A stretch of 63,940 nucleotides of DNA, counting the filler, from Vicugna vicugna (taxonomy: Eukaryota), in assembly GCA_013265495.1 (NCBI GenBank). It is 76 parts of 73 records of this genome, joined end to end, with 100 filler letters (N's around TTAATTAATTAA, not from the genome) between each part and the next. Parts side by side here need not be neighbours in the genome. Positions count along the whole stretch, not along the records: positions 52,798 to 53,953 come from MU062869.1; 75 more parts are not named here. One strand, written 5' to 3'. Both the position numbers and the translations under genes were made by a program. Below, piece after piece: positions 6,281-62,408 of this stretch; the first letter of the stretch is position 1; the number at the start of each line of letters is the position of its first letter. A model generated the notes under the pieces. That model was not told the origin of the DNA. It saw only the letters and a program-made list of their open reading frames with translations, and did no database searches.

Positions 6281-6427
6281 AAAAAATTTGGGGGGGGTAA
6301 GGTAATTAGATTCATTTATTTATTTACTTACTTTTAACTTACTTACTTAATGAAAGTACCGGGAATTGAACCCAGGACCTCATGCATGCTAAGCACGCAC
6401 TCTACCATTGATCTATGCCCTCCTCCC
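6281..6427 (-). mobile_element. tRNA-derived SINE, camelid Vic-1 type
   Basis: The reverse strand reads GGAGGAGGGCATAGATCAATGGTAGAGTGCGTGCTTAGCATGCATGAGGTCCTGGGTTCAATTCCCGGTAC (A and B boxes), then a TAAA-rich tail with CTAATTACC and a C-run. This matches my recollection of the Tylopoda Vic-1 SINE. Confidence 0.85.
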
Positions 6428-15499: not shown

Positions 15500-16209
15500 C
15501 ATGTAGATGGAATCTATTCAAATTACATATGTCTAGGAGAGAATACGATCCAAGAGGGTTTTTGTGGGATCAAACTGTGATTCTTGAATCTGGTGATAGG
15601 AAGAACCTACAAAGTCAAAGTAAATATTTCAGAGTGCATAGGTAACTTGTTTGGTGGTTGAAACATCAGTCATGCGCATGTTCACAACTCAGAAATTCAA
15701 GTTTGAGGAATCTGTGATGCATGAAACATGTTCGTAATACGGAATGCCATGGTTATGTAAAAAATGTAAATTACATGTGTATTGGTGAGAATTCGCTCAA
15801 AGAGTGTTNNNNNNNNNNNNNNNNNNNNNNNNNNNNNNNNNNNNNNNNNNNNNNNNNNNNNNNNNNNNNNNNNNNNNNNNNNNNNNNNNNNNNNNNNNNN
15901 NNNNNNNNNNNNNNNNNNNNNNNNNNNNNNNNNNNNNNNNNNNNNNNNNNNNNNNNNNNNNNNNNNNNNNNNNNNNNNNNNNNNNNNNNNNNNNNNNNNN
16001 NNNNNNNNNNNNNNNNNNNNNNNNNNNNNNNNNNNNNNNNNNNNNNNNNNNNNNNNNNNNNNNNNNNNNNNNNNNNNNNNNNNNNNNNNNNNNNNNNNNN
16101 NNNNNNNNNNNNNNNNNNNNNNNNNNNNNNNNNNNNNNNNNNNNGTAATCCAGATGTCCTCAATTCAGGAATGTATATATGTCGAATCCGTCATGTATGT
16201 AGCATGTAC
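15500..16209 (+). repeat. Satellite C (~247-bp monomers, 741-bp trimer)
   Basis: CATCAGTCATGCGCATGTTCACAACTCAGAAAT is shared with 16310-16819 and 20289-21435. Confidence 0.92.
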
Positions 16210-16309
16210 NNNNNNNNNNNNNNNNNNNNNNNNNNNNNNNNNNNNNNNNNNNNTTAATTAATTAANNNNNNNNNNNNNNNNNNNNNNNNNNNNNNNNNNN
16301 NNNNNNNNN

Positions 16310-16819
16310 ATCTATTCAAATTAAATATCTCAAGGGTAGAATTCGCTCCAAGAGAGTTTTTCTTGGATCAAAGTGTGATTCTTCAAACTGGTGATAGTCA
16401 GAAGCTACGAAGTCAAAATAAATATTTCATAGTGCATAGGTAACTTGTTTGGTGGTTGAAACATCAGTCAGGCGCATGTTCACAACTCAGAAATGCATGT
16501 TTGAGGAATCCGTGATGCATGAAACATGTTCGTAGTANNNNNNNNNNNNNNNNNNNNNNNNNNNNNNNNNNNNNNNNNNNNNNNNNNNNNNNNNNNNNNN
16601 NNNNNNNNNNNNNNNNNNNNNNNNNNNNNNNNNNNNNNNNNNNNNNNNNNNNNNNNNNNNNNNNNNNNNNNNNNNNNNNNNNNNNNNNNNNNNNNNNNNN
16701 NNNNNNNNNNNAAGGTCAGTACATGCTCACAAGCCAGAAACGCATGATTGCCAAATCCGACATACATGTAGTAGGTACGGAACCCGAAATGCCATGTTGT
16801 TGGAATTCATGTAAATTAT
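16310..16819 (+). repeat. Satellite C
   Basis: Same monomer motifs in the same b-c-a order. Confidence 0.92.
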
Positions 16820-16919: not shown

Positions 16920-18106
16920 AGTCCCCTGTTCGGGGAAGTCCGAGAAATACCGTCCCTGACCTTGTAAAGGCAGACTCTGTCACAGGGATATCCTGCAAAC
17001 CCCCTAGCATTCCCTGGCACAGAGAGATTAGTAAAACCCTCAGGGGAGACGAGCTTAGGCATTCCGTTATACCCACGCGCTGCCGACCGTTGGTGGAACC
17101 TCCCACGCTCAGGATTCCGGAACCATTTTCAGTGCGTGGGGGAGCTCGAGACACAACTCCACGCAGCTCTCTCCAGTCACAGGTGTTCCCTGTTCGGGGA
17201 AGTCCGAGAAATAACTTCCCTGACCTTGGGGGGTCAGCCTTTGTCACTGGGATATCCTGCAAACCGCCCTAGCATTCCCTGGCACAGAGAAATTAGGAAN
17301 NNNNNNNNNNNNNNNNNNNNNNNNNNNNNNNNNNNNNNNNNNNNNNNNNNNNNNNNNNNNNNNNNNNNNNNNNNNNNNNNNNNNNNNNNNNNNNNNNNNN
17401 NNNNNNNNNNNNNNNNNNNNNNNNNNNNNNNNNNNNNNNNNNNNNNNNNNNNNNNNNNNNNNNNNNNNNNNNNNNNNNNNNNNNNNNNNNNNNNNNNNNN
17501 NNNNNNNNNNNNNNNNNNNNNNNNNNNNNNNNNNNNNNNNNNNNNNNNNNNNNNNNNNNNNNNNNNNNNNNNNNNNNNNNNNNNNNNNNNNNNNNNNNNN
17601 NNNNNNNNNNNNNNNNNNNNNNNNNNNNNNNNNNNNNNNNNNNNNNNNNNNNNNNNNNNNNNNNNNNNNNNNNNNNNNNNNNNNNNNNNNNNNNNNNNNN
17701 NNNNNNNNNNNNNNNNNNNNNNNNNNNNNNNNNNNNNNNNNNNNNNNNNNNNNNNNNNNNNNNNNNNNNNNNNNNNNNNNNNNNNNNNNNNNNNNNNNNN
17801 NNNNNNNNNNNNNNNNNNNNNNNNNNNNNNNNNNNNNNNNNNNNNNNNNNNNNNNNNNNNNNNNNNNNNNNNNNNNNNNNNNNNNNNNNNNNNNNNNNNN
17901 NNNNNNNNNNNNNNNNNNNNNNNNNNNNNNNNNNNNNNNNNNNNNNNNNNNNNNNNNNNNNNNNNNNNNNNNNNNNNNNNNNNNNNNNNNNNNNNTTGGG
18001 GAGGCAGCCTCTGTCACTGGGATATACTGCAAACCCCCATAGCATTCCCTAGCACAGAGAAATTAGGAAAACACTCAGGGGATACGAGCATAGGGATTCC
18101 GTTAGA
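16920..18106 (+). repeat. Satellite A array, gapped
   Basis: CCCTGTTCGGGGAAGTCCGAGAAA recurs at about one monomer spacing. Confidence 0.96.
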
Positions 18107-18206: not shown

Positions 18207-18888
18207 CACTTATATCTCAGAACTGAGCATGTGGTGAGACGTTCGTTCATCAAGCCCCACGAGAACGGGTTGCAGGAGTAACACTTACTCGGGTTTCTCA
18301 GTCTGTTTCCTAGTGCCGGTTTGAAGTGCCTGCCGTTTTCACTGTAAAACCAAGATGGAGCTTGTACCTCCACATATATATATATGGAGTGGAGANNNNN
18401 NNNNNNNNNNNNNNNNNNNNNNNNNNNNNNNNNNNNNNNNNNNNNNNNNNNNNNNNNNNNNNNNNNNNNNNNNNNNNCACTTCCTCTCTCAGTCTGTTTC
18501 CTAGTGCCGGTTTGAAGTGACTACCGTTTTCACTGTAAACCCGAGTTGGGGCTTGTACCTTCCCATATATATGTATGAAGTGGAGTCGGCAACTGAACTG
18601 AAACTTTGTGTTCCCTTCAAGCTAGGTAAAGGACGGCTTTCACACACACTTATCTCTCAGAACTGAGCATATGGAGAGACGTTCGTTCATCCAGCACAAA
18701 GGGAACGGTTTGCAGGAGCANNNNNNNNNNNNNNNNNNNNNNNNNNNNNNNNNNNNNNNNNCTGTTTCCTAGGTTTGAAGTGCCTGCCGTTTTCACTGTA
18801 AAACAGAGTTGGAGCTTGTACATCCACATATATATGTGTGGAGTGGATTTGGCAACTGAAAAGAAACTTTGTGCTCCCTTCCCTTCAA
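18207..18888 (-). repeat. Satellite B (249-bp monomer)
   Basis: CTGTTTCCTAG...GGTTTGAAGTG occurs three times; reverse complement of 52798-53953. Confidence 0.93.
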
Positions 18889-18988
18889 NNNNNNNNNNNN
18901 NNNNNNNNNNNNNNNNNNNNNNNNNNNNNNNNTTAATTAATTAANNNNNNNNNNNNNNNNNNNNNNNNNNNNNNNNNNNNNNNNNNNN

Positions 18989-19267
18989 GCTTTCACACAC
19001 ACTTATCTCTCAGAAGTGAGCATGTGGAGAGACGTTCGTTCATCCAGCACCAAGGGAACGGGTTGCAGGAGAAACACTTACTCTGGTTTCTGAGTCTGTT
19101 TCCTAGTGCCGGTTTGAAGTGCCTGCCGTTTTCACTGTAAATCCGAGATGGAACTTGTAACTCCCCATATATATGTATGGAGTGGAGATGGCAACAGAAA
19201 ATTAACTTTGGGTTCCCTTAATGCTAGTTGAAGGACGGCTTTCACACACACTTATTTCTCAGAACTG
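18989..19267 (-). repeat. Satellite B
   Basis: GCTTTCACACACACTTAT at 18989 and 19238 gives a 249-bp period. Confidence 0.95.
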
Positions 19268-19367: not shown

Positions 19368-19809
19368 CTGGAGCGATTTCCACCTAACAGATATGTAATT
19401 TATATGTATTTCTACAACATGGAATTCCGGGTTCCATACATGCTACATGTACGACGGATTTGGCAATCATGCATTTCTGACTTGTGAGCATGTGGATTAC
19501 AGACCTTTCACCCTCCGAACAAGGCTTATATAGACTTAGAAATATTTACTCTGACTTCATAGATTTTTCCTATCACCACGTTCTAAAATCGGACATTTGG
19601 CACCAGAAAACACTCTTTGNNNNNNNNNNNNNNNNNNNNNNNNNNNNNNNNNNNNNNNNNNNNNNNNNNNNNNNNNNNNNNNNNNNNNNNNNNNNNNNNN
19701 NNNNNNNNNNNNNNNNNNAACATGCATTGTTGTGAAGATGCGCATGACTGATATTACAACCAAAAAACAAGTTACCAATGCACTTTGAAATATTTACTTT
19801 GACTTGGTT
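19368..19809 (-). repeat. Satellite C
   Basis: Reverse complement of the 54054-54400 region (TTTCTGACTTGTGAGCATGTGGATTAC). Confidence 0.92.
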
Positions 19810-20288: not shown

Positions 20289-21435
20289 GGTGGATGAAAG
20301 ATCAGTAATCCACATGCACACAAGTCAGAAACTCATGTTTACTGAATCCATCATGCATGCAGGCAGGTACGGATCCCGGAATGAAATGTTGATGGAAATC
20401 ATCTAAATTACATATCAATTAGGTGGAAATCGCTCCATAAGAATTTTTCTGAGCATAATGCACGAATTCGAATCTTGTGTTAGGGAAAGCTTGTGAAAAT
20501 GAGTACACGTGTCTAGATGAAAACATTCCATTTATAGAGGTTGAAAGATCAGTAATCCACATGCTCTCAACTCAGGAATGCATGTTTGTCAAATCCGTCA
20601 TGCATGTAGCATGTACGGAACACGGAATATCATGTACATGGAATCTATTCTAATTACATTTCTCTAGGGTAGAATTCACTCCAACAGGGTTTTTCTGTGT
20701 TCAAATTGTGATTCTTGTAGCTGGTGACAAGGAGAAGCTATGTAGTCAAAGTAAATATTTCAAAGTGCATAGGTACCCTGTTATGGTTGAAATATCAGTC
20801 ATGCGCATGTTCACAACTCAGAAATGCTTGTTTGAGGAATCCGTGTTGCATGAAACATGTTCGGAATACGGAATGCCATGGTTATGTAAACAATGTAAAT
20901 TACAGGTGTATTAGTGAGAATTCGCTCAAAGAGTTTTTTCTGGTGCCTAATGTCCTATTTTAGGATCTGGTGATAGAAAAAACCTATGAAGTCAGAGTAA
21001 ATATTTCAAAATGTATATATGCCTTGTTTGGTGGATGAAAGATCAGTAATCCACATGCTCACAAGTCAGAAACNNNNNNNNNNNNNNNNNNNNNNNNNNN
21101 NNNNNNNNNNNNNNNNNNNNNNNNNNNNNNNNNNNNNNNNNNNNNNNNNNNNNNNNNNNNNNNNNNNNNNNNNNNNNNNNNNNNNNNNNNNNNNNNNNNN
21201 NNNNNNNNNNNNNNNNNNNNNNNNNNNNNNNNNNNNNNNNNNNNNNNNNNNNNNNNNNNNNNNNNNNNNNNNNNNNNNNNNNNNNNNNNNNNNNNNNNNN
21301 NNNNNNNNNNNNNNNNNNNNNNNNNNNNNNNNNNNNNNNNNNNNNGCATGTAGCAGGAAATTGGAATTCCATGTAGATCGAATCAATTCAAATTACATAT
21401 CTCTACGATAAATTATGCTCCAAGAGTGTTTTTCT
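20289..21435 (+). repeat. Satellite C, complete 741-bp trimeric higher-order repeat
   Basis: GGTGGATGAAAGATCAGTAATCCACATGC at 20289 and 21030 (741 bp apart), with diverged subunit anchors at 20308, 20555, 20801 and 21049. Confidence 0.93.
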
Positions 21436-24042: not shown

Positions 24043-24275
24043 AAGCAGAGTCAGTGTTTCTCCTGCAACCCGTTCCCTTTGTGCTCGTTAACTAACATCT
24101 CTCCGCATGCTCAGTTCAGACAGATAATTGTGTGTGAAAGCCGTCCTTCACCTAGCTTGAAGGGAACACAAAGTTTCTTTTCAGTTGCCAACTCCACTCC
24201 GTACACATATAAGGGAGGTACAAGCTCCAACACGGTTTTACAGTGAAAACGGCAGTCACTTAAACCCGGCACTAG
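24043..24275 (+). repeat. Satellite B monomer directly abutting an L1
   Basis: GTGTGAAAGCCGTCCTTCACCTAGCTTGAAGGGAACACAAAGTTTC...CCGGCACTAG. Confidence 0.93.
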
Positions 24276-25150
24276 TAAAACAAGAAGAAAACCTACGGAA
24301 TGGGAGAAAATGTTTGCAAGTGAATCCGACAAAGGCTTGATCTCCAAAATATATAAACAGCTCATACGACTCAATAAGAAAAAAATAAACAACCCAATCC
24401 AAAAATGGGCAGAAGACCTAAACAAGCAATTTGCCAAGGAAGACATACAAATGATCAAAAAACACATGAAAAAGTGTTCAATATCACTAATTATCAGAGA
24501 AATGCAAATCAAAACTACAATGAGGTATCACCTCACACCAGTCAGAATGGCCGTCATTCAAAAATCCAAAAATGACAAATGCTGGAGAGGCTGTGGAGAA
24601 AGGGNNNNNNNNNNNNNNNNNNNNNNNNNNNNNNNNNNNNNNNNNNNNNNNNNNNNNNNNNNNNNNNNNNNNNNNNNNNNNNNNNNNNNNNNNNNNNNNN
24701 NNNNNNNNNNNNNNNNNNNNNNNNNNNNNNNNNNNNNNNNNNNNNNNNNNNNNNNNNNNNNNNNNNNNNNNNNNNNNNNNNNNNNNNNNNNNNNNNNNNN
24801 NNNNNNNNNNNNNNNNNNNNNNNNNNNNNNNNNNNNNNNNNNNNNNNNNNNNNNNNNNNNNNNNNNNNNNNNNNNNNNNNNNNNNNNNNNNNNNNNNNNN
24901 NNNNNNNNNNNNNNNNNNNNNNNNNNNNNNNNNNNNNNNNNNNNNNNNNNNNNNNNNNNNNNNNNNNNNNNNNNNNNNNNNNNNNNNNNNNNNNNNNNNN
25001 NNNNNNNNNNNAAAAAACAAAAACAAACAAACAAACAAAAACAAAGCATAAATACAGGACAGAAATAGACTCATGGAGAGAATTCAGACTTGTGGTTACT
25101 GGGGTGTGGGGCGGGGTAGAGGGTGGGAAGGGATAGACTGGGATTTCAAA
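24276..25150 (+). mobile_element. 5'-truncated L1 (ORF2 C-terminus and 3'UTR)
   Basis: Open frame [59 protein letters not shown], with 3'UTR after the gap. Confidence 0.96.
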
Positions 25151-25250: not shown

Positions 25251-25460
25251 GCCAGCCCACACTCAGGATAGCAGAAAACTTCTTCATGTGTATTCAGGTG
25301 GTGGGGATACCGAGTCCACGCTTTTTTCAAGGAGCACAGGTATTCCCATGTTGTGGGGTTTTGGTTAATAACCTCCAAATCCCATGGAGAAGCACTCGCT
25401 AATACTTGGATTTAGAGCCCAACCCACCCTTTCCCCAGCACTCCGTATCAGGCAACCAAA
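25251..25460 (+). repeat. Satellite D (heteromeric ~260-270-bp monomers)
   Basis: Near-identical to 40732-40939. Confidence 0.9.
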
Positions 25461-25560
25461 NNNNNNNNNNNNNNNNNNNNNNNNNNNNNNNNNNNNNNNN
25501 NNNNTTAATTAATTAANNNNNNNNNNNNNNNNNNNNNNNNNNNNNNNNNNNNNNNNNNNN

Positions 25561-25880
25561 TGGATCAGGGGGCACTCACTGCTACTTGGCCTCCAAGCAC
25601 AACCCCCAGGTTTCCCTCATGGCCTGGCCTAAAGGAACACTCAGGGAACAGAAGCTAAGGGATACTAATAGAACCCAAGTGCTGCTATCAGTTTGAGGAA
25701 CATCCCCACACTCAGAATACCAGAACACTTCATTGCGTGTGTGCTGGATGTAGGGAAAGAATCAAAGCATCTTTCAGGGGGCACATTTATTCCATGGTTG
25801 AGGTTGTAGGTTAAAAACCCGCATCCCATGGATACGCTCTCGCTAATACTTGTTTAGAGCCCAACCCCCACTTTCCCCCA
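25561..25880 (+). repeat. Satellite D
   Basis: Closely matches the reverse complement of ~57780-58100. Confidence 0.9.
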
Positions 25881-30093: not shown

Positions 30094-30921
30094 TTTTCTG
30101 TTGAATAATGCACGAATTCGAGTCTGGTGTTAGTGAAAACTTGTGAAAATGAATACACGTGTCTAGATGAAAATATTAGTTTTATAGAGGATGAAAAAAC
30201 AGTAATCCACATGCTCTCAACTCAGGAATGCATGTTTGTCGAATCAGTCATGCATGAAGCATGTACGAAACGCGGAATATCATGTAGATTGAATCTATTC
30301 AAATTATATTTCTCTTGGGTAGANNNNNNNNNNNNNNNNNNNNNNNNNNNNNNNNNNNNNNNNNNNNNNNNNNNNNNNNNNNNNNNNNNNNNNNNNNNNN
30401 NNNNNNNNNNNNNNNNNNNNNNNNNNNNNNNNNNNNNNNNNNNNNNNNNNNNNNNNNNNNNNNNNNNNNNNNNNNNNNNNNNNNNNNNNNNNNNNNNNNN
30501 NNNNNNNNNNNNNNNNNNNNNNNNNNNNNNNNNNNNNNNNNNNNNNNNNNNNNNNNNNNNNNNNNNNNNNNNNNNNNNNNNNNNNNNNNNNNNNNNNNNN
30601 NNNNNNNNNNNNNNNNNNNNNNNNNNNNNNNNNNNNNNNNNNNNNNNNNNNNNNNNNNNNNNNNNNNNNNNNNNNNNNNNNNNNNNNNNNNNNNNNNNNN
30701 NNNNNNNNNNNNNNNNNNNNNNNNNNNNNNNNNNNNNNNNNNNNNNNNNNNNNNNNNNNNNNNNNNNNNNNATGTACGGAACCCAGAATACCATGTGGAT
30801 GGAATTCATGTAAATTACATATCTATTTGGTTGAAATAGCTCCAGAAGCATTTTTGAGTGAAAAATGCACTAATTCGAATCTGATGTAGGGAAAGCTTGT
30901 GAAAATGAATACACGTGTCTT
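30094..30921 (+). repeat. Satellite C, gapped
   Basis: CTTGTGAAAATGAATACACGTGTCT on both sides of the gap. Confidence 0.92.
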
Positions 30922-31021
30922 NNNNNNNNNNNNNNNNNNNNNNNNNNNNNNNNNNNNNNNNNNNNTTAATTAATTAANNNNNNNNNNNNNNNNNNNNNNN
31001 NNNNNNNNNNNNNNNNNNNNN

Positions 31022-32456
31022 GTGAATTCTACCCTAGAGATATGTAATTTGATTAGATGCCATCTAAATCATATTCTGTGTTCCGTACATGCTACATACA
31101 TGATGGATTCGACAAATATACATTCCTTAGTTGAGGTCATCTCCTCTATAAATGTAATAGTTTCATCTTGACACGTGTACACATTTTCACAAGCTTTCCC
31201 TAAAACCAGGTGCGAATTCGTGCATTTTTCACAAAAAAAATTTCTGGAGCGATTTCCACCTAATAGGNNNNNNNNNNNNNNNNNNNNNNNNNNNNNNNNN
31301 NNNNNNNNNNNNNNNNNNNNNNNNNNNNNNNNNNNNNNNNNNNNNNNNNNNNNNNNNNNNNNNNNNNNNNNNNNNNNNNNNNNNNNNNNNNNNNNNNNNN
31401 NNNNNNNNNNNNNNNNNNNNNNNNNNNNNNNNNNNNNNNNNNNNNNNNNNNNNNNNNNNNNNNNNNNNNNNNNNNNNNNNNNNNNNNNNNNNNNNNNNNN
31501 NNNNNNNNNNNNNNNNNNNNNNNNNNNNNNNNNNNNNNNNNNNNNNNNNNNNNNNNNNNNNNNNNNNNNNNNNNNNNNNNNNNNNNNNNNNNNNNNNNNN
31601 NNNNNNNNNNNNNNNNNNNNNNNNNNNNNNNNNNNNNNNNNNNNNNNNNNNNNNNNNNNNNNNNNNNNNNNNNNNNNNNNNNNNNNNNNNNNNNNNNNNN
31701 NNNNNNNNNNNNNNNNNNNNNNNNNNNNNNNNNNNNNNNNNNNNNNNNNNNNNNNNNNNNNNNNNNNNNNNNNNNNNNNNNNNNNNNNNNNNNNNNNNNN
31801 NNNNNNNNNNNNNNNNNNNNNNNNNNNNNNNNNNNNNNNNNNNNNNNNNNNNNNNNNNNNNNNNNNNNNNNNNNNNNNNNNNNNNNNNNNNNNNNNNNNN
31901 NNNNNNNNNNNNNNNNNNNNNNNNNNNNNNNNNNNNNNNNNNNNNNNNNNNNNNNNNNNNNNNNNNNNNNNNNNNNNNNNNNNNNNNNNNNNNNNNNNNN
32001 NNNNNNNNNNNNNNNNNNNNNNNNNNNNNNNNNNNNNNNNNNNNNNNNNNNNNNNNNNNNNNNNNNNNNNNNNNNNNNNNNNNNNNNNNNNNNNNNNNNN
32101 NNNNNNNNNNNNNNNNNNNNNNNNNNNNNNNNNNNNNNNNNNNNNNNNNNNNNNNNNNNNNNNNNNNNNNNNNNNNNNNNNNNNNNNNNNNNNNNNNNNN
32201 NNNNNNNNNNNNNNNNNNNNNNNNNNNNNNNNNNNNNNNNNNNNTTCTCACAAATAAACATGTAATTTACATTGTTTACATAACCATGGCATTCCGTATT
32301 ACGAACATGTTTCATGCATCCCGGATTCATCAAACTTGAATTTCTGAGCTGTGAACATGCGCATGACAAATGTTTCAAACACCAAACAAGTTACTTATGC
32401 ACTATGAAATTCTTATTTTGACTTTGTAGCTTCTGCCTATCACCAGTTTCAAGAAT
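31022..32456 (-). repeat. Satellite C, gapped
   Basis: Reverse-complement monomer motifs (GTGAACATGCGCATGAC). Confidence 0.92.
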
Positions 32457-34649: not shown

Positions 34650-34870
34650 GTTTGCCCCTTCAATTTTCTATCCTATTTGGGGCCTTAATTTATTTTTTAA
34701 TTAAAAAATGTCTGTTAGCAGTTAAGAAAACAAAAGCAAAGAAAAGATGCACATGATAGAGTTTGCCCCTTCAATTTTCTATCCTATTTGGGGCCTTAAT
34801 TTATTTTTTAATTAAAAAATGTCTGTTAGCAGTTAAGAAAACAAAAACAAAGAAAAGATGCACATGATAG
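34650..34870. repeat. 110-bp direct tandem duplication
   Basis: 34650-34759 and 34761-34870 differ at one base. Confidence 0.95.
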
Positions 34871-36076: not shown

Positions 36077-37220
36077 CCATGCTCAGGATTCCGGAACCAT
36101 TGTCAGTGCGAGTGGGAGCTCAAAAGATAAATAGACTCAGCTCTCTTCCGTCACAGGTGTTCCCTGTTCGGGGAAGTCCGAGAAATAACTTCCCTGACCT
36201 TGGGGANNNNNNNNNNNNNNNNNNNNNNNNNNNNNNNNNNNNNNNNNNNNNNNNNNNNNNNNNNNNNNNNNNNNNNNNNNNNNNNNNNNNNNNNNNNNNN
36301 NNNNNNNNNNNNNNNNNNNNNNNNNNNNNNNNNNNNNNNNNNNNNNNNNNNNNNNNNNNNNNNNNNNNNNNNNNNNNNNNNNNNNNNNNNNNNNNNNNNN
36401 NNNNNNNNNNNNNNNNNNNNNNNNNNNNNNNNNNNNNNNNNNNNNNNNNNNNNNNNNNNNNNNNNNNNNNNNNNNNNNCCCTGGGATACAAACCCCCCTA
36501 GCATTCCCTGGCACATAGACGTTTGGAAAACCCTCAGGGGAGACGAGATTAAGCTGTCCGTTAGAACCCACGCGCTGCCGACCGTTGGTGGAACCTCCCC
36601 ACGCTCAGGATTCCGGAAACATTGTCAGTGCGAGAGGGAGTTCGAGAGACAACTCCACGCAGCTCTCTTCAGTCACAGGTGTTCCCTGTTCGGGGAAGTC
36701 TGAGAAATAACTTCCCTGATTTTGGGGAGGCAGCCTCTGTCCCTGGGATATCCTGCAAACCCCCCTAGCATTCCCTGGCACATAGACGTTTGGAAAACCC
36801 TCAGGGGAGACGAGCTTAGGCATTCCGTTTGAACCCAAGCGCTGCCCACCGTTGGTGGAACCTCTTCAAGCTCAGGATTCCGGAAACATTGTCAGTGCGA
36901 GAGGGAGTTCGAGAGACAACTCCACGCAGCTCTCTTCAGTCACAGGCGTTCCCTGTTATGGGAAGTCCGAGAAATACCTTCCCTGTCCTTGGGGAGGCAG
37001 CCTCTGTCACTGGGATATCCTGCAAACCCCCCTAGCATTCCCTGGCACAGAGACATTAGGAAAACCCTCAGGGGAGACGAGCTTAGGCTTTCCGTTAGAA
37101 CTCACGCGCTGCCGACAGTTGGTGGAACCTCCCCACGCTCAGGATTAAGGAAACATTGTCAGTGCGACGGGAAGGTCGAGAGACAACTCCACGGTGCTCT
37201 CTTCATCACAGGTGTTCCGT
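36077..37220 (+). repeat. Satellite A array
   Basis: About 3 contiguous monomers after the gap. Confidence 0.96.
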
Positions 37221-40439: not shown

Positions 40440-41252
40440 GGATTCTATTAAAAGCAAGACGCTGATGTCAGTTGGAGGAACTACACCACACTCAGCATAC
40501 TGGAACACAGCCTTGTGTGGTGGGGAGATTTGAAGCCCCACTCCACGCAGATGAATGGGTGCTCAGGTATTTCAATTTATGGAGAATTCATCTAAACACT
40601 TCCTCAGTCCATCGGGGACACTCGCTACTATTTGGCCTCAAAGCCCAACCCCCAGGTTTNNNNNNNNNNNNNNNNNNGATTACAAGCTAAGGGATTCTAT
40701 TAGAACCCAGCCGCTTCTGTCACCTGAAATTGCCAGCCCACACTCAGGATAGCAGAAACCTTCATCATGTGTGTTCTGGTGGTGGGGATACAGAGTCCAC
40801 GCTCTTTTCAAGGAGCACAGGTATTCCCATGTTGTGGGGTTTTGGTTAATAACCTCCAAATCCCATGGAGAAGCACTCGCTAATACTTGGATTTACAGAC
40901 CAACCCACCCTTTCCCCAGGACTCCGTATCAGGCAACCATACAGGGTAGACAAGTTAAGCGATTTTATAAGAACCAAGGCCCTTCTCTCAGTTGGAGGAG
41001 GCTGCCCACTCTCAGGATAACTGTGCAAGTGTTCGTGTGTGTGCTGGAGGTGTGGAAACAGACTCCACGGATATTTATGGGGGCACAAGTGTTCCCAAGT
41101 TAGGGATGTAGTTTAAACACCTCCACAAACCATAGAGAGGTCATCGCAAATACTTGGTTTCGGAGCCCAAACCACACTTTGCCCAATCTCCCGCCTAGGC
41201 TTTCCATCAGGGAAGACAACAAATGGATTCAATTAGAACCCAGGCGCTGCTG
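40440..41252 (+). repeat. Satellite D, ~3 different monomer types in tandem
   Basis: GATTyyATwAGAACC anchors at 40693, 40961 and 41226 (268 and 265 bp apart). Confidence 0.92.
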
Positions 41253-44070: not shown

Positions 44071-45013
44071 ATGTGGGGTTTCGGCTCTAATACCAAGTAT
44101 TAGGCAATGCATCTATAGGGGAAGTTGAGAAATTGTACCTAAAACCAGCAACGTCACCTGAAAGATGCCTGGATTCTGTTTCCCCACTTCCAGCACACAA
44201 ACGAGGAAGTGTTCTTCTATCCTGAATGTGGGGAGTTTCCTCCAAATGACAGCAGCACCTGAGGTCTAATAGAATCCGTTAGCTTGACTTCCTTGAGTGT
44301 TTTCCTAGGCCGGGCTGTGAGCGAATGTGGGGNNNNNNNNNNNNNNNNNNNNNNNNNNNNNNNNNNNNNNNNNNNNNNNNNNNNNNNNNNNNNNNNNNNN
44401 NNNNNNNNNNNNNNNNNNNNNNNNNNNNNNNNNNNNNNNNNNNNNNNNNNNNNNNNNNNNNNNNNNNNNNNNNNNNNNNNNNNNNNNNNNNNNNNNNNNN
44501 NNNNNNNNNNNNNNNNNNNNNNNNNNNNNNNNNNNNNNNNNNNNNNNNNNNNNNNNNNNNNNNNNNNNNNNNNNNNNNNNNNNNNNNNNNNNNNNNNNNN
44601 NNNNNNNNNNNNNNNNNNNNNNNNNNNNNNNNNNNNNNNNNNNNNNNNNNNNNNNNNNNNNNNNNNNNNNNNNNNNNNNNNNNNNNNNNNNNNNNNNNNN
44701 NNNNNNNNNNNNNNNNNNNNNNNNNNNNNNNNNNNNNNNNNNNNNNNNNTCCGACTGACAGCAGCGCCTGGGTACTATTGGAATCCCTTTGCTTGTCTTC
44801 CCTGATGGTATGCCTAGGCGGGAGTGCGGGGGAAAGGGTGGTTTGGGTTCCAAAACCAAGTATTTGCGAGTACCTCTCTACGTTTAGTGGAGGTTTTTAA
44901 ACTACATCCCTAAAGGGGGAACACCTGTGCCCCCATATACATCCGTGGAGTCTGTTTCCAGACGTCCAACACACACACAAACACTTGCACAGTTATCCTG
45001 AGAGTGGGCAGCC
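44071..45013 (-). repeat. Satellite D, gapped
   Basis: 44750-45013 is the reverse complement of the 41000-41252 monomer type. Confidence 0.9.
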
Positions 45014-45664: not shown

Positions 45665-46528
45665 TGCAATCACCCTTAGAATTCCCTGGCACAGAGACAT
45701 TAGGAAAAAACTCAGGGAAAACGAGGTAAGTAATTCCGTTTGTACCCACGCGCTGCCATAAGTTGGTGGAACCTCCCCACGCTCAGGATTCCGGATAGAT
45801 TGTCAGTGCGTGGAGGATCTCGAGAGACAACTCCACGCAGCTCTCTTCAGTCACAGGTGTTCGCTGTTCGGGGAAGTCCGAGAAATACCTTCCCTGACCT
45901 TGGGGAGGCAGCCTCTGACACTNNNNNNNNNNNNNNNNNNNNNNNNNNNNNNNNNNNNNNNNNNNNNNNNNNNNNNNNNNNNNNNNNNNNNNNNNNNNNN
46001 NNNNNNNNNNNNNNNNNNNNNNNNNNNNNNNNNNNNNNNNNNNNNNNNNNNNNNNNNNNNNNNNNNNNNNNNNNNNNNNNNNNNNNNNNNNNNNNNNNNN
46101 NNNNNNNNNNNNNNNNNNNNNNNNNNNNNNNNNNNNNNNNNNNNNNNNNNNNNNNNNNNNNNNNNNNNNNNNGGGATATCCTGAAATCACCCCTAGCATT
46201 CCCTGGCACAGAGACATTAGGAAGACCCTCAGGGGAGACGAGCTTAGGCATTCCGTTAGAACCCACGCGCTGACGACAGTTGGTGGAACTTCCCAAAACT
46301 CAGGATTCCGGAACCATTTTCAGTGCGTGGGGGAACACGAGACACATCTTCACGCAGTTCTCTTCAGTCACAGGAGTTCCCTGTTCGGGGAAGTCCGAGA
46401 AATACCTTCCCTGACCTTGGGGAGGCAGCCTCGGTCACTGGGATATCCTGCAATCACCCCTAGCATTCCCTGGCACAGAGAATGTTCCCTGTTCGGGGAA
46501 GTCCGGGAAAAACTTTCCCTGAGCTTGG
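45665..46528 (+). repeat. Satellite A array containing one truncated monomer
   Basis: Standard motifs, with a short 108-bp unit at 46376-46483. Confidence 0.95.
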
Positions 46529-49557: not shown

Positions 49558-50058
49558 AAACAATCAGGCAAGACAAGCTAAGGGATCCCACTACAGTGCA
49601 GTCGCTGCTGTAAGTCGCAGGGTCTTCCGTACACTCAGGATTCCAGAAAAAATTATTCTGTGTGGGGGAGTTTTGCAGCCCCAATCCACGCAGTTGAATG
49701 GGGAAACAGGTGTTCCCCATTAGGAAGAAGTCCTCTAAATACTTCCTCAGTCCATCGGGTTGCACTTGCATATACTTGACTTCCTTAAACTAACCCCCAG
49801 CTTTCCCACGCAGCCCGGGTTTGGGAAACACTCAGGGAATACAAGCTAAGGGATTCTATTAGATCCCAGGCACTGCTGTCTGTTGGAGGAGATTCCCCAC
49901 ATTCAGGATACATGAACACGTCTTCTTGTGTGTGCTGCAGTTGGGGAAACTGAGTCCACGCATCTTTATGGCGGCACAGTTTTCCCGGGTTTGGGCTGTA
50001 GTGATAAACCTCAACATCCCATAGAGTGGCCCTCGCTAATACGTGGCTTTAGAGCCCA
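49558..50058 (+). repeat. Satellite D
   Basis: AAGCTAAGGGAT at 49575 and 49843 (268 bp apart). Confidence 0.9.
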
Positions 50059-50158: not shown

Positions 50159-50713
50159 CAGGTGTGAGATGATAACATTGTAGTTTGGAGCTGCATTTCT
50201 CTGTTATTGAGCGATATTGAGCATTTTTTTATATGCCTATTGGCCATTGTGTGTCTTCATTGGAGAATTGCTTGTTTAGTTGTTCTGCCCATTTTTGGAT
50301 TTGGTTGTTTATTTTTTTCTTATTAAGTTGTATGAACTATTTATATAGTCTAGAAATTAAGCCATGGTCAGTCTCATCTTTTGCAAATANNNNNNNNNNN
50401 NNNNNNNNNNNNNNNNNNNNNNNNNNNNNNNNNNNNNNNNNNNNNNNNNNNNNNNNNNNNNNNNNNNNNNNNNNNNNNNNNNNNNNNNNNNNNNNNNNNN
50501 NNNNNNNNNNNNNNNNNNNNNNNNNNNNNNNNNNNCTGAGATGTAAATAATGTTTTACCTATGTTTTCTTGTGAGAAGTTTATAGTGTCTTGTCTAATAT
50601 TTAAGCCTTTAAGCCATTTTGAGTTTGTTTCTTTTTGGGTTTTTTGCGATTCTATTGTATGCTTTTGCTTTGTGGTTACCTTATTCTTCAAATATATCAA
50701 ACCATTACTATAT
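50159..50713 (-). mobile_element. L1 ORF2 C-terminal fragment
   Basis: Reverse-complement homologue of 24310-24545. Confidence 0.9.
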
Positions 50714-52797: not shown

Positions 52798-53953
52798 GAA
52801 GGGAACACAAAGTTTCTTGTCACTTGCAAACACCACTCCATAGAAATATAAGGGGAAGAACAAGCTCCAACTCGGTTTTACAGTGCAAACTGCAGGAACT
52901 ACAAACCGGCACTAGGAAGCAGACTGAGAATCAAGAGTACGTGTTTCTCCTACAACCCTTTCCCTTTGTGCGGGATGAAAGAACGTCTCTCCACATGCTC
53001 AGTTCGGAGAGATAAGTGTGTGTGAAGGCCGTCCTTCACCTACCTTGAAGGGAACACAAAGTTTCTTGTCACTTGCAAACACCACTCCATAGAAATATAA
53101 GGGGAAGAACAAGCTCCAACTCGGTTTTACAGTGCAAACTGCAGGAACTACAAACCGGCACTAGGAAGCAGACTGAGAATCAAGAGTACGTGTTTCTCCT
53201 ACAACCCTTTCCCTTTGTGCGGGATGAAAGAACGTCTCTCCACATGCTCAGTTCTGAGAGATAAGTGTGTGTGAAAGCCGTCCTTCACCTANNNNNNNNN
53301 NNNNNNNNNNNNNNNNNNNNNNNNNNNNNNNNNNNNNNNNNNNNNNNNNNNNNNNNNNNNNNNNNNNNNNNNNNNNNNNNNNNNNNNNNNNNNNNNNNNN
53401 NNNNNNNNNNNNNNNNNNNNNNNNNNNNNNNNNNNNNNNNNNNNNNNNNNNNNNNNNNNNNNNNNNNNNNNNNNNNNNNNNNNNNNNNNNNNNNNNNNNN
53501 NNNNNNNNNNNNNNNNNNNNNNNNNNNNNNNNNNNNNNNNNNNNNNNNNNNNNNNNNNNNNNNNNNNNNNNNNNNNNNNNNNNNNNNNNNNNNNNNNNNN
53601 NNNNNNNNNNTTTACAGTGCAAACATCAGCAACTTAAAACCGGCACTAGGAAACAGACTGAGAAACCAGAGTAAGTGTTTCCCTGCAAACTGTTCCCTTT
53701 GTTCTGGATGAACGAACGTCTCTCCTCATGCTCAGATTTGAGAGATAATTGTGTGCGAAAGCCGTCCTTCAACTAGCTTGAAGGGAACACAAAGTTTCTA
53801 TTCAGTTGCAAACTCCAGCCCTTACATATATAAGGGGAGGTAAATCTCTAACTCGGATTTACGGTGCATACTGGAGGAACTTCAAAACGGCACTAGGAAA
53901 CACACAGCGAAACCAGAGTTAGTGTTTCCCTGCAACCCGTTCCCTTTGTGCTG
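52798..53953 (+). repeat. Satellite B array (249 bp)
   Basis: GGGAACACAAAGTTTC at 52801 and 53050; the ORF track shows identical ORFs 249 bp apart. Confidence 0.96.
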
Positions 53954-54053: not shown

Positions 54054-54737
54054 TCGTAATACGGAAATCCATGGTTATGTAAACAGTGTAAATTACATAT
54101 GTATTGCTGAGAATTCGCACAAAGAGTGTTTTCTGGTGCCAAATGTCCTATTTTAGAACCTGGTGATAGGAAAAAACTATGAAGTCAGTGTAAATATTTC
54201 TAAGTTTATATACGCCTTGTTCGGAGGCTGAAAGATCTGTAATCCACATGCTCACAAGTCAGAAATGCATGATTGCCAAATCCGTCATACATGTAGTATG
54301 TACGGAACCCGGAATGCCATGTTGTCGGAATACATTTAAATTAAATATTTGTTAGGTGGAAATAGTTCCAGAAATATTTTTCTGTAAAAAATGCATGAAT
54401 TCGAACCTGGTGTTAGGGAAAGTTTCTGAAAATGTGTACACGTGTCTAGATGAAACTATTCCTTTTATAGAGGAGGAAAGATTAGTAATCAAAATGGTCT
54501 CAACTCAGGAATGCATGTTTGTCAAATCCATCATGTATGTAGCATATACGGAACACGGAATATCATGTAGATGGAATCTATTCAAATTACATATCTCTAG
54601 GGTAGAATTCGCTCCAAGAGGGTTTTTCTCGGATCAAAGTGTGATTTTTGAATCTGGTGATAGGAAGAAGCTACAAAGTCAAAATAATTCACAGTGCATA
54701 TGTAACATGTTTGGTGGTTGAAACATCAGTCATGCAC
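54054..54737 (+). repeat. Satellite C, ungapped c-a-b-c series
   Basis: Subunit anchors at 54242, 54488 and 54732. Confidence 0.93.
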
Positions 54738-54837: not shown

Positions 54838-55866
54838 CGCACTGACAATGGTTCCGGAATCCTGAGCGTGGGGAAGTTCCACCAAAGTTGGCAGCGCGTG
54901 GGTTCAAACGGAATGCCTAAGCTCGTCTCCCCTGAGGGTTTTCCTAATGTCTCTGTGCCAGGCAATGCTAGGTGTAATTGCAGGATATCCCAGTGTCAGA
55001 GGCTGCCTCCCCAAGATCAGGGAAGGTATTTCTCGGACTTCCCCGAACAGGGAACACCTGTGACTGAAGAGACCTGCGTGAAGTTGCCTCTCGTGCTCCC
55101 CCACGCACTGACAATAGTTCCGGAATCCTGAGCGTGGGGAGGTTCCACCAACGTTCGGCAGCGCGTGGGTTCTAACGGAATGCCTAAGCTCGTCTCCCCT
55201 GAGGGTTATCCTAATGTCTCTGTGCCAGGGAATGCTAGGGGTGATTGCAGGATATCCCAGTTTTTGAGGCTGCCTCCCCAAGATCAGGGAAGGTATTTCT
55301 CTGGCTTCCCTAAAGAGGGAACACCTGTGACTGAATAGAGTTGCGTGGAACTGTCTCTCGAGCTCCCCCACGCACTGACAATGTTTCCGGAATCCTGAGC
55401 GTGGGGAGGTTCCACCAACGGTCGGCAGCGCGTGGGTTCTAACGGAATGCCTAAGCTCGTCTCCCCTGGTGTTTTCCTAATGTCTCTGTGCCAGGGAATG
55501 CTAGGGGGGATTGCAGGATATCCCAGTGTCAGAGGCAGCCTCCACAAGGNNNNNNNNNNNNNNNNNNNNNNNNNNNNNNNNNNNNNNNNNNNNNNNNNNN
55601 NNNNNNNNNNNNNNNNNNNNNNNNNNNNNNNNNNNNNNNNNNNNNNNNNNNNNNNNNNNNNNNNNNNNNNNNNNNNNNNNNNNNNNNNNNNNNNNNNNNN
55701 NNNNNNNNNNNNNNNNNNNNNNNNNNNNNNNNNNNNNNNNNNNNNNNNNNNNNNNNNNNNNNNTATCCCAGGGCGTTGCCTCCTCAAGGTCAGGGAAGAT
55801 ATTTCTGGTACTTCCCCGAAGAGGGAACACCTGCGAATGAAGAGAGCTGCGTGGAGTTGTCTCTCG
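54838..55866 (-). repeat. Satellite A array
   Basis: GCAGCGCGTGGGTT at 54891, 55158 and 55425 gives an exact 267-bp period. Confidence 0.97.
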
Positions 55867-55966
55867 NNNNNNNNNNNNNNNNNNNNNNNNNNNNNNNNNN
55901 NNNNNNNNNNTTAATTAATTAANNNNNNNNNNNNNNNNNNNNNNNNNNNNNNNNNNNNNNNNNNNN

Positions 55967-56412
55967 GCTGCCGACCGTTGGTGGAACCTCCCCACGCTCA
56001 TGATTCCGGGAACGTTGTCATTGGGTGTGGGAGCTCGAGGGACAACTCCACGCAGCTCTCTTTATTCACAGGTGTTCCCTGTTCGGTGAAGTCCGAGAAA
56101 TACCTTCCCTGACCTTGGGGAGGCAGCCTCGGACACTGGGATATCCTGCAATANNNNNNNNNNNNNNNNNNNNNNNNNNNNNNNNNNNNNNNNNACGAGC
56201 TTAGGAATTCCGTTAGAACCCACGCGCTGCCGACCGTTGGTGGAACCTCCCCACGCACAGGATTCCGGAATCGTTGTCAGTGCGTGGGGGAGCTCAAGAG
56301 ACAGCTCCACGCAGCTGACTTCAGTCACAGGAGTTCCCTGTTCGGGGATGTCCGAGAAATACATTAAATGATATTGGGAGGCAGCCTCGGTCACTGGGAT
56401 ATCCTGCAATCA
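55967..56412 (+). repeat. Satellite A
   Basis: Standard motifs. Confidence 0.95.
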
Positions 56413-57323: not shown

Positions 57324-58108
57324 TGGAGATGTTTAAACTACCACCCACAACTTGGGAATTACTGTGACTCCTGAAAATTGCGTGTGCTTTTTCCCCACGT
57401 CCAGCACACACAGGAAGAAGTGTTCTGGGGTTCTGAGTGTGGGGAGGTTCCTCCAAATGGGTTGTAATAGAATCCTTTAGCTTGACTTCCCTAAGTGTTT
57501 TCCTAGGCCTAGCAGTAAGCGATGGTGTGGTATGGGCTCTAAAGCCAAGTATTAGCGAGTGCATCTCTGTGGGTAGTGGAGGGTTTTAAACTACTTCCCC
57601 AACCTTGGAACACCTGTGCCACATAAAGATGCGTGGAATCTGTTTCACCACCACCATCACACACACGGAGACGTACTCAGGTGTCCTGATGGTGGGGAGG
57701 ATCCTCCAAATGACAGCAGCGCCTGGGTTCTAATAGAAACCCTTAGCTTGTATTCCCTGATGACATGCCTAGGCTGGAGAGTGGGGAAAAGTGGGGGTTG
57801 GGCTCTAAACCAAGTATTAGCGAGACCCTATCCATGGGATGTGGGTTTTTAAAGTACAACCCACAACCATGGAATAAATGTGCCCCCTGAAGATGCTTTG
57901 AGTTTTCCCTACATCCAGCACACACACGAAGATAAGCTCTGGTATTCTGAGTGTGGGGAAGTTCTTCAAACTGACAGCAGCACCTGGATTCTATTAGTAT
58001 CCCTTAGCTTCTGTTTCCTGAGTGTCTTTAAGCCAGGCCATGAGGGAAAGCTGGGGGTTGGGTTTGGAGGCCACGTAGCAGTGAGAGCCCCCTGATCCAC
58101 TGAGGAAG
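57324..58108 (-). repeat. Satellite D, ~3 monomer types
   Basis: TAwTAG anchors at 57465, 57731 and 57992. Confidence 0.92.
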
Positions 58109-58208: not shown

Positions 58209-59564
58209 ACTTGAATTTCTGAGTTGTGAACATGCGCATGACTGAAGCTCAAAAACCAATTTACCTATGTATATTGATATATTTATTTTGACTTCGTAGT
58301 TTCTAACGATCACCAGTTTCAAGAATCACACTTTGATCCCAGAAAGAACCTCTTGGAGCAAATTCTAACCTAGAGATATGTAATTTGAATAGATTTCATC
58401 TACAAGATATTCCGTGTTCCNNNNNNNNNNNNNNNNNNNNNNNNNNNNNNNNNNNNNNNNNNNNNNNNNNNNNNNNNNNNNNNNNNNNNNNNNNNNNNNN
58501 NNNNNNNNNNNNNNNNNNNNNNNNNNNNNNNNNNNNNNNNNNNNNNNNNNNNNNNNNNNNNNNNNNNNNNNNNNNNNNNNNNNNNNNNNNNNNNNNNNNN
58601 NNNNNNNNNNNNNNNNNNNNNNNNNNNNNNNNNNNNNNNNNNNNNNNNNNNNNNNNNNNNNNNNNNNNNNNNNNNNNNNNNNNNNNNNNNNNNNNNNNNN
58701 NNNNNNNNNNNNNNNNNNNNNNNNNNNNNNNNNNNNNNNNNNNNNNNNNNNNNNNNNNNNNNNNNNNNNNNNNNNNNNNNNNNNNNNNNNNNNNNNNNNN
58801 NNNNNNNNNNNNNNNNNNNNNNNNNNNNNNNNNNNNNNNNNNNNNNNNNNNNNNNNNNNNNNNNNNNNNNNNNNNNNNNNNNNNNNNNNNNNNNNNNNNN
58901 NNNNNNNNNNNNNNNNNNNNNNNNNNNNNNNNNNNNNNNNNNNNNNNNNNNNNNNNNNNNNNNNNNNNNNNNNNNNNNNNNNNNNNNNNNNNNNNNNNNN
59001 NNNNNNNNNNNNNNNNNNNNNNNNNNNNNNNNNNNNNNNNNNNNNNNNNNNNNNNNNNNNNNNNNNNNNNNNNNNNNNNNNNNNNNNNNNNNNNNNNNNN
59101 NNNNNNNNNNNNNNNNNNNNNNNNNNNNNNNNNNNNNNNNNNNNNNNNNNNNNNNNNNNNNNNNNNNNNNNNNNNNNNNNNNNNNNNNNNNNNNNNNNNN
59201 NNNNNNNNNNNNNNNNNNNNNNNNNNNNNNNNNNNNNNGTAAATAAAATATCTTTCATCCTCTATAAAAGGAATATTATCATCTAGACTCGTGTACACAT
59301 TTTCACAAGCTTTCCCTAACACCAGTTTCGAATTCGTTGTTTTTTCACAGAAAAATAGTTCTGGAGCGATTTCAACCTAACAGATATTTTATTTACATGA
59401 ATTCCACCAACATGGCATTCCGGGATCCGTACATGCTACATGTATGACGGATTTGGCAATCATGCGTTTCTGACTTGTGAGCATGTGAATTACTGACCTT
59501 TCATCCTCCGAACTAGGCCTATATAGACTTAGACATATTTACTCTGACGTCATAGGTTTTTCCT
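58209..59564 (-). repeat. Satellite C, gapped
   Basis: Reverse-complement monomer motifs. Confidence 0.92.
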
Positions 59565-59664: not shown

Positions 59665-60500
59665 AACATCCCTGAACTTGCTGAGGCAGCGTCGGTCACT
59701 GGGATATCCTGCAATCCCGCCTAGCATTCCCTAGCAGAGAGATATTAGGAAAATCCTCAGGGGAGACGAGCTTAGGCATTCCGTTAGAACCCACGCGCTG
59801 CCGACCGTTGGTGGTACCTCCCCACGCTCAGGATTCCGGAAATATTGTCAATGCGTGGGGGAGCTCGAGAGACAACTCCACGCAGCTCTCTTCAGTCACA
59901 GGTTTTCCCTGTTCGGGGAAGTCCGAGAAGTACCTTCCCTGACCTTGTGGAGGCAGCCATCCTGCAATCAACCCTAGCATTTTCTGGCACAGAGATATTA
60001 GGAAAAAACTCAGGGGAGACGAGCTTAGGCATTATGTTAGAACCCACGCGCTGCCGACCGTTGGTGGAACCTCCCCACGCTCAGGATTCCGGAAACATTG
60101 TCAGTGCTTGGGGGAGCTCGAGAGACAACTCCAAGAAGCTCTCTTAATTCACAGGGGTTACCTGTTCTGGGAAGTCTGAGAAATACTTTCCCTGACCTTG
60201 GGGAGGCAGCCTCGTGCACTGGGATATCCTGCAATCACCGCTAGCATTCCCTGGCACAGAGATATTAGGAAAACCCTCAGGGGAGACGAGATTAGGCATT
60301 CCGTTAGAACCCACGCGCTGCCGACCGTTGGTGGAACCTCCCCACCCTCAGGATTCCGGAACCATTGTCAGTGCGTGGGGGAGCTCGAGAGACAACTCCA
60401 CACAGCTCTGTTCAGTCACAGCTGTTCCGTGTTAGGGGAAGTCCAAGAAATAACTTCTTTGACCTTGGGGAGTCAGCCTCTGACACTGGGATATTCTGCA
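59665..60500 (+). repeat. Satellite A array (~3 monomers)
   Basis: Standard motifs; one monomer has a ~14-bp deletion near 59958. Confidence 0.96.
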
Positions 60501-61702: not shown

Positions 61703-62408
61703 AAAACCCTCAGGGGAGACGAGCTTAGGCATTCCGTTGAACCCACGTTCTGCCGACCGTTGGTGGAACCTCCGCACACTCAGGAATCCGGAAAAATTGT
61801 CAGTGCGTGGGGGAGCTCGAGGGACAACTCCACGCAGCTCTCTTCAGTCACAGGTGTTCCCTGTACGGGGAAGACCGATAAAAATCTTCCCTGAACTTGG
61901 GGTGGCAGCCTCTGACACAGGGATAACCTGCAATCACCCCTAGCATTCCCTGGCAAAGAGAAATTAGGAAAACCCTCATGGGAGACGAGCTTAGGCATTC
62001 CGTTGAACCCACGTTCTGCCGACCGTTGGTGGAACCTCCGCACACTCAGGAATCCGGAAAAATTGTCAGTGCGTGGGGGAGCTCGAGAGACAACTCCACG
62101 CAGCTCTCTTCAGTCACAGGTGTTCCCTGTTCGGGGAAGTCCGAGAAATACCTTCCCTGACCTTGGGGAGGCAGCATCTGACACTGGGATATCCTGAAAT
62201 CACCCCTATCATTCCCTGGCACACTGACATTAGGAAAACCCGCAGGGGAGACGAGGTTAGGCTTTCCGTTAGAACCCACGCGCTGCCGACATTTAGTGGA
62301 ACCTCCCCACGCTGAGGATTCCGAAACCATTGTCAGTGCGTGGGGGAGCTCGGGAGACAACTCCATGCAGCTCTCTTCAGTCACAGGTGTTCTCTGTTCG
62401 GGGAAGTC
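61703..62408 (+). repeat. Satellite A array
   Basis: AAAACCCTCA at 61703 and 61969. Confidence 0.96.

What the first reader, a model, noticed from the sequence alone, without database searches (positions are those of the whole stretch)
53640..53800. Possible single satellite superfamily uniting A/D with B/C
Seen: short anchors in the same order and spacing. A reads TAGGAAA-35nt-AACCC-21nt-GAACCTCCCCACGCTCAG, and B (reading across copies) reads TAGGAAA-34nt-AACCC-22nt-GAACGTCTCTCCACATGCTCAG. Also D GGGGGCACAAGTGTTC ~ B GGGAACACAAAGTTTC, and D CTCGCTAATACTTGGATTT ~ C TTCGCTCAAAGAGTGTTTT. Inference: four major satellites may derive from one ~250-270-bp ancestor, each branch having a monomeric form (A, B) and a heteromeric form (D, C). 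This is the best candidate for an undescribed system here, but the anchors are short and could be chance.
Basis: inference. Interest (0 to 1): 0.7.

Follow-up and report, generated by a model that had tools for sequence, protein, structure and literature searches.

The report
Camelid satellites share one ancestral unit
Four tandem-repeat DNA families of about 250-270 letters in this camel-family genome, one of them the published llama centromere candidate, line up end to end and likely descend from one ancestral unit, which is a known way for satellite DNA to evolve but a useful family tree for camelid centromere work.

Summary
The window is 76 tiny camelid scaffolds; 45 of 112 segments belong to four satellites: A (267 bp), D (~266, multi-type), B (249), C (3 x 247). 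A~D and B~C are certain. The cross-link is weak but real. The A+D and B+C profiles align collinearly on one strand, above all shuffles (0/400 up to 20-column blocks). Two non-overlapping halves each find the same register. Columns conserved within both branches agree 67 of 96 times (null 46%). D carries the signal (D-B 0/5000). By eye, B is the llama centromere candidate (Melters 2013) and D is alpaca VpaSat16 (7 x 266), whose subunit that paper does not mention. Two of the organisms holding B lack A and D proper but carry another A/D-branch relative: a library-type pattern. No protected motif or CENP-B box was found. Verdict: a real, old satellite superfamily made by ordinary processes, not found in print. 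This scan reported the same kinship earlier on other pieces of this genome.

The parts
53611..53953 (+). Satellite B array fragment (247-249-bp monomers) that holds the finding; full monomer 53647-53893
53647..53735 (+). Best-conserved cross-branch block (TAGGAAA ... CATGCTCAG); 35 of the 67 four-way identical columns lie in the first 100 alignment columns (counted by eye)
53783..53798 (+). B anchor GGGAACACAAAGTTTC, aligned with D GGGGGCACAGG
52798..53291 (+). Satellite B, two 249-bp copies 99% identical; about 97% like the llama candidate centromere repeat at consensus level (by eye)
18207..19267 (-). Satellite B fragments (two scaffolds)
24043..24278 (+). Satellite B fragment ending at a LINE-like sequence
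54054..54737 (+). Satellite C, higher-order repeat of three ~247-bp types in order C1-C2-C3
20289..21073 (+). Satellite C, one whole 741-bp trimer period (44 bp recur at 97.7% at offset 741); further C fragments at 15500-16819, 19368-19809, 21346-21435, 30094-32456, 58209-59564
54838..55549 (-). Satellite A, homogeneous 267-bp monomers
59665..60500 (+). Satellite A; the stretch laid on four public runs. Further A at 2097-2446, 13941-15399, 16920-18106, 36077-37220, 45665-46528, 55764-56412, 61703-62408
57324..58108 (-). Satellite D, successive divergent ~266-bp monomer types; monomer 57772-58030 matches the start of alpaca VpaSat16 by eye
40440..41252 (+). Satellite D, monomer types in conserved order; further D at 25251-25880, 44071-45013 (-), 49558-50058

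Best explanation
A, D, B and C are four tandem satellites that align end to end on one strand and likely descend from one ancestral unit of about 250-265 bp, which likely split early into an A/D branch and a B/C branch and was then likely amplified repeatedly by unequal crossing-over and gene conversion. Shown: the four families, their monomer sizes, the monomer types of C and D in fixed order, A~D and B~C homology, and a collinear cross-branch alignment with six short gaps (2, 1, 4, 6, 7, 5 bases) that give most of the 18-bp length difference. Inferred: (1) common descent of the two branches; (2) in each branch one array was homogenised as blocks of several diverged monomers (C trimer 741 bp; D probably 7- or 14-mers of 1863/3718 bp) and one as single monomers (B, A); (3) library-type turnover: B is shared by all six organism labels that hold it, while A and D are amplified only in some, and the others amplified a different A/D-branch member; (4) B is the likely centromere repeat, and the rest are likely heterochromatic, with no shared sequence-specific function.
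For: A~D z 49 and B~C z 26, 0/500 each. AD vs BC profile 24.5 bits, 0/150 in 4 of 4 settings, reversed control 13.1. 0/400 for column blocks of 1, 10 and 20, and 1/400 at 30, so order matters; the score is 23-31 bits wherever the monomer is cut. Columns with A=D and B=C agree across branches in 67 of 96 cases (70%; null 46+-4%, max 57%, 0/300). Non-overlapping halves each find the + strand and the expected register, 0/200 each, in both directions; without the first anchor block 1/200. D vs B consensus: 0/400 in 3 of 3 scoring schemes, 0/5000 (Gumbel p 4e-4) and 0/285 real unrelated windows; z 7.0 against a maximum of 3.3 for 75 GC-matched real windows. 8 of 8 D and 13 of 13 A near-full monomers pick the + strand and the expected register on B (copies are not independent). 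Runs X1 and X3 lay 286,694 and 120,589 contigs on A; X2 lays 131 and X21 2 of 11 million reads. On D, X1 lays 25,942 contigs; X2, X12 and X21 lay mainly on one 45-bp core whose loose ends continue A-like (about 72 of 105 letters, by eye).
Against: nhmmer with AD or BC profiles finds no cross-branch hit at E<10; single-family profiles reach only E 5.5 and 8. A-B alone is not significant, and its reversed control scores higher. AD-B beats its reversed control only 26.4 to 23.2. A-C is null; D-C is marginal (80/5000), and in 2 of 3 schemes it takes another register or strand. Only 3 of 5 C monomers align in register to D and 2 of 5 to A. The middle third (AD columns 89-176) and the shifted half 67-198 find no signal. 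Raw cross-branch identity is only 39-43%. Profiles rest on few copies (10 B, 12 D rows). No scaffold holds two families (0 of 76) and no intermediate monomer was found.
Confidence: 0.87

Rival explanations
1. Two unrelated satellite pairs (A/D and B/C) whose short likenesses are chance, picked after the fact.
For: No nhmmer cross-hit; A-B and A-C not significant, and reversed B scores above real B against A; middle third without signal.
Against: 0/5000 and 0/285 for D-B; two separate halves land in the same register; 67 of 96 agreement at doubly conserved columns; the result does not depend on where the monomer is cut.
Confidence: 0.06
2. Partial or convergent kinship: only a block of about 175 bp (AD columns 177-265 plus 1-88) or a set of protein-binding motifs is shared, through segment exchange or convergent selection, and the rest has a separate origin.
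For: The signal sits in two of three thirds; 35 four-way identical columns in the first 100 against 32 in the other 170 (by eye); the relative in runs X2, X12 and X21 is caught mainly on one 45-bp core.
Against: Conservation profiles of the two branches do not coincide (rho 0.07 and 0.15; 91/225 and 58/205 shifts reach them); shuffling in 20-column blocks destroys the score; the middle part still aligns collinearly and holds three of the six gaps, which lowers its score; no full CENP-B box.
Confidence: 0.07

Closest known systems
Lama glama 248-nt candidate centromere repeat, Melters et al. 2013, PMC4053949 (seen: passages of the main text, supplement 1 part 4, one row of Table S1)
   Same: B is this repeat: about 7 differences in 249 letters between the window's B consensus and the listed sequence (by eye); 45% GC, 2.9% of the genome.
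   Different: The table lists one repeat, with higher-order structure 'not found'; no relatives A, C or D appeared in what I saw; centromere status there is a computational guess from abundance.
Alpaca VpaSat16 (1863 bp), probably also VpaSat15 (3718) and VpaSat14 (1864), Mendoza-Cerna et al. 2026, PMC13751797 (seen: abstract, results, most of the discussion, passages, Table S3 with cells cut at 400 letters)
   Same: The first 400 letters of VpaSat16 read as two D monomers, the first matching 57772-58030; VpaSat15 reads as D on the other strand (by eye). 1863 = 7 x 266 and 3718 = 14 x 265.6.
   Different: The paper treats them as kilobase monomers. Its main text has no mention of VpaSat14-16, 'superfamily' or 'higher-order'. 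The match to VpaSat14 rests on length alone.
[quoted passage not shown] 2026, Genomics 118:111212; seen only as a citation in PMC13751797 and PMC13477059; paper not held)
   Same: A is abundant in some organisms and nearly absent from others that hold B, which fits a lineage-specific satellite. A 267-bp unit for SAC-SAT is recalled, not from a call.
   Different: Sequence identity of A with SAC-SAT is untested.
Satellite superfamilies under the library hypothesis (grasshopper orthologous superfamilies, PMC8822648; seen: passages)
   Same: Related families from one ancestor, amplified differently in related species, with low-copy counterparts left behind; little sign of functional motifs.
   Different: Here in a mammal, at about 40% cross-branch identity, with paired monomeric and multimeric arrays.
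Primate alpha satellite: monomeric and higher-order arrays, suprachromosomal families (PMC7767330; seen: passages)
   Same: One monomer family giving both monomeric arrays and higher-order repeats of diverged monomers.
   Different: No sequence kinship is claimed. The unit is 250-267 bp rather than 171; no full CENP-B box; here the centromere candidate is the monomeric array, not a higher-order one.

Membership tests
Satellite superfamily (library model) | Head-to-tail tandem arrays of each family | tested here: met
   Self-offsets 267, 249, 247/741 and 253-268
Satellite superfamily (library model) | Collinear sequence homology between families beyond chance | tested here: met
   not seen by nhmmer
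Satellite superfamily (library model) | Different members amplified in related species, with low-copy relics of the others | tested here: met
   A and D abundant in X1 (A also in X3), nearly absent in X2, X12 and X21, which hold another relative and low-depth D-like contigs; organisms are coded and depth is not copy number
Satellite superfamily (library model) | Intermediate monomers or mixed arrays linking the branches | tested here: inconclusive
   None in 76 short scaffolds; no genome held
Higher-order repeat (C) | Same-type monomers much closer than neighbours, in fixed order | tested here: met
   Three types, mostly 83-93% within (C2 variants 79-83%, one short fragment 76-84%) and 47-78% between, order C1-C2-C3, period 741
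Higher-order repeat (D) | Same-type monomers recur in fixed order with a defined period | tested here: inconclusive
   Three types recur at 88-95% with the same neighbours, but no scaffold spans a period; 7 x 266 and 14 x 266 come from published lengths
Llama candidate centromere repeat (B) | Sequence identity to the published 248-nt unit | tested here: met
   About 97%, by eye only
Functional centromere satellite | CENP-A occupancy and location at the primary constriction | not testable with these tools
   No ChIP or FISH data
CENP-B-box satellite | Full 9-base core of the CENP-B box (motif recalled) | tested here: not met
   Consensus 6-7 of 9; 8 of 9 in 5 of 47 monomers; none 9 of 9
SAC-SAT (for A) | Sequence identity to SAC-SAT and location at NORs | not testable with these tools
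   Paper not held

The most novel reading that the evidence does not exclude
All major 250-270-bp satellites of the camel family form one alpha-satellite-like superfamily older than the split of Old and New World camelids. Its centromere member B has barely changed for more than 11 million years, while the sister branch was re-amplified separately in each lineage (A and D in South American camelids, another member in camels). The rDNA-associated SAC-SAT would then be a repurposed cousin of the centromere repeat.
Probability: 0.4. Interest if true: 0.5.

Novelty: new member of a known kind. Interest (0 to 1): 0.3.

Why it matters
It turns four or five separately listed camelid repeats into one family tree, and it exposes a hidden 266-bp subunit in the published kilobase units VpaSat15/16. 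That helps annotate camelid telomere-to-telomere assemblies and choose CENP-A and FISH probes. It also offers a mammalian test of the library model in a group with a very stable karyotype. It implies no new mechanism.

Tried and rejected
No whole genome is held. An exact 23-base B pattern found 0 stretches in metagenome contigs and 0 in viral contigs, so no extra copies could be added. nhmmer cross-branch search was negative. An internal half-monomer duplication, suggested by one D-C alignment at offset 134, was rejected: 13/100 and 11/100. A protected shared motif was not supported (the AD branch alone has one conserved 20-column window, 15/2000, not mirrored in BC). A nested inside D is unresolved: A shares a 2-base gap with two D types, but D monophyly has support 63/0 and the alternative gives p-AU 0.43; C is one clade without B, 100/99. 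An RNA-gene origin was not supported: 2 Rfam hits in the window, neither in these satellites. A merged four-family profile hit 0 of 67 other segments at E<10. VpaSat08/09/11/12 (about 20 x 265 bp) were considered as D multimers and dropped: their first 400 letters do not look like D. Shares of words for runs that I did not lay are weak evidence only. Rows dropped before counts: fragments under 60 nt (alignments), under 100 nt (profiles), under 170 nt (trees) and under 225 nt (single-monomer test); A was thinned to 6 of 20 rows in the four-family tree; segment 50159-50389 was removed from B because it joined only through LINE-like sequence.

Full report
Setting. The window is a string of 76 tiny scaffolds joined by N-TTAATTAATTAA-N spacers, so neighbours in the window are not neighbours in the genome. 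Of 112 N-free segments (46,137 bases), 45 (15,223 bases) fall into four tandem families: A 15, C 15, D 8, B 7. No scaffold holds two of them. Consensus lengths are 267, 249, 248 and 270 for A, B, C and D, with mean within-family identity 0.88, 0.86, 0.72 and 0.69. No whole genome is held. The animal is a camelid, most likely South American: B differs from the llama repeat of Melters et al. at about 7 of 249 letters (by eye).

Observation. The coordinates lie in a B array. The anchors exist with the stated spacing at consensus level; the copy at 53647 lacks the AACCC anchor, and the C anchor is a composite. All five anchors lie on the single best path when an A+D profile is aligned freely, on both strands and circularly, to a B+C profile.

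Within branches. A~D (z 49) and B~C (z 26) are beyond doubt (nhmmer E down to 5e-30 and 7e-9). C has three monomer types in the order C1-C2-C3 with a 741-bp period. D has many types; three recur at 88-95% with the same neighbours.

Between branches, for. D vs B consensus beats every shuffle in 3 of 3 global scoring schemes (0/400 each), 0/5000 shuffles and 0/285 real windows from unrelated segments; z is 7.0 against at most 3.3 for 75 GC-matched real windows. The AD vs BC profile scores 24.5 bits, 0/150 in all 4 settings, against 13.1 for the reversed profile. Shuffling BC in blocks of 1, 10 or 20 columns never reaches the score (0/400 each; 1/400 at 30, 15/400 at 50), and the score holds wherever the monomer is cut, so it is the order of the likenesses that counts, not isolated motifs or my choice of phase. 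Each half, searched alone, lands on the same strand at the expected place (0/200 each, both directions). Where A equals D and B equals C, the branches agree in 67 of 96 columns, against 46% in shuffles (0/300), while other columns are at background (0.33 vs 0.31, 49/300). That is the pattern expected of old common descent. The alignment needs six short gaps.

Between branches, against. nhmmer finds no AD-to-BC or BC-to-AD hit. The middle third gives nothing (86/200). Pairwise cross-branch identity is 39-43%. Profiles are shallow and the scoring was chosen by me. I put common descent at about 0.87.

Other genomes. Laid on A, X1 and X3 give 286,694 and 120,589 contigs, X2 only 131 mostly short ones, and X21 2 of 11 million reads. 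Laid on D, X1 gives 25,942 contigs over all 30 bins, whereas X2, X12 and X21 pile up on one 45-bp core, with loose ends that continue like A (about 72 of 105 letters by eye), plus low-depth D-like contigs.

How it likely works. One ancestral unit split into two branches; unequal crossing-over and gene conversion (established model, not shown here) then homogenised some arrays as single monomers (A, B) and others as blocks (C, D), and lineages amplified different members. The order of events in the A/D branch is unresolved; B does not nest within C. I found no sign of a protected motif: conservation profiles of the two branches do not coincide, and there is no full CENP-B box (motif recalled). 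There is no internal half-repeat and no RNA-gene match. B is the likely centromere repeat only on the strength of its abundance in llama (2.9% of the genome).

What is known. B is in Melters et al. 2013 (PMC4053949; passages and supplements seen). D appears as VpaSat16 and probably VpaSat15/14 in PMC13751797 (abstract, results, most of the discussion and Table S3 seen; cells cut at 400 letters, the slide supplement unreadable), which does not mention a subunit or a superfamily. A may be SAC-SAT (unit length recalled; paper not held). Richardson et al. 2019 (PMC6598621; passages) has no satellite content. Vidal-Rioja 1987 and 1994 were seen only as cited in PMC13751797, where some camelid satellites are said to predate the family's split and others to be lineage-specific. 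Superfamilies under the library model and mixed monomeric/higher-order arrays are established (PMC8822648, PMC7767330; passages). Eight searches showed no paper reporting this kinship; repeat databases and the unheld papers could. Earlier notes of this scan reached the same reading on other pieces of the same genome; they are not independent support, and I read them after my own homology tests.

Verdict. A real but faint homology uniting four camelid satellites: a new member of a known kind. Interest 0.3.

Noticed in passing
runs X2, X12, X21 on window 57407-57451 and 60048-60091/60317-60361: Organisms B and F, which hold satellite B by the word index (X2 0.47, X12 0.41), lack A and D proper but carry a high-depth fifth relative of the A/D branch, about 69% like A over 105 letters by eye, plus low-depth D-like contigs. 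They are likely Old World camels (inference).
   Followed up: partly
window 57324-58108 vs PMC13751797 Table S3: Published kilobase satellites VpaSat16 (1863) and VpaSat15 (3718) appear to be 7- and 14-mers of the 266-bp D unit; the window holds about 11 D monomer types (from the alignment), more than a 7-mer needs.
   Followed up: partly
   Followed up: no
window 24043-24604: Satellite B stops at about 24278 and runs directly into LINE-1-like sequence (resemblance recalled; linked to 50159-50389): an insertion into the array or an array edge.
   Followed up: no
window 6351-6422 (-): tRNA-like Rfam hit, 47 bits, in AT-rich sequence; probably the head of a tRNA-derived SINE.
   Followed up: no
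window 2547-3413: The first 300 letters look like a retroviral-type LTR (TATA-like box in GC-balanced sequence); by eye only.
   Followed up: no
window 52798-53291: Two adjacent B copies are 99% identical against 86% between scaffolds: very recent local duplication or an assembly echo.
   Followed up: no
window 34650-34870: A 111-bp near-exact tandem duplication at a scaffold end, possibly an assembly artefact.
   Followed up: no
satellite B vs A profile columns 17-77: The complement (not reverse complement) of B resembles part of A about as well as real B does (E 0.27; 23.4 bits). No biological route is known to me; it is treated as chance and as a warning about the null.
   Followed up: partly
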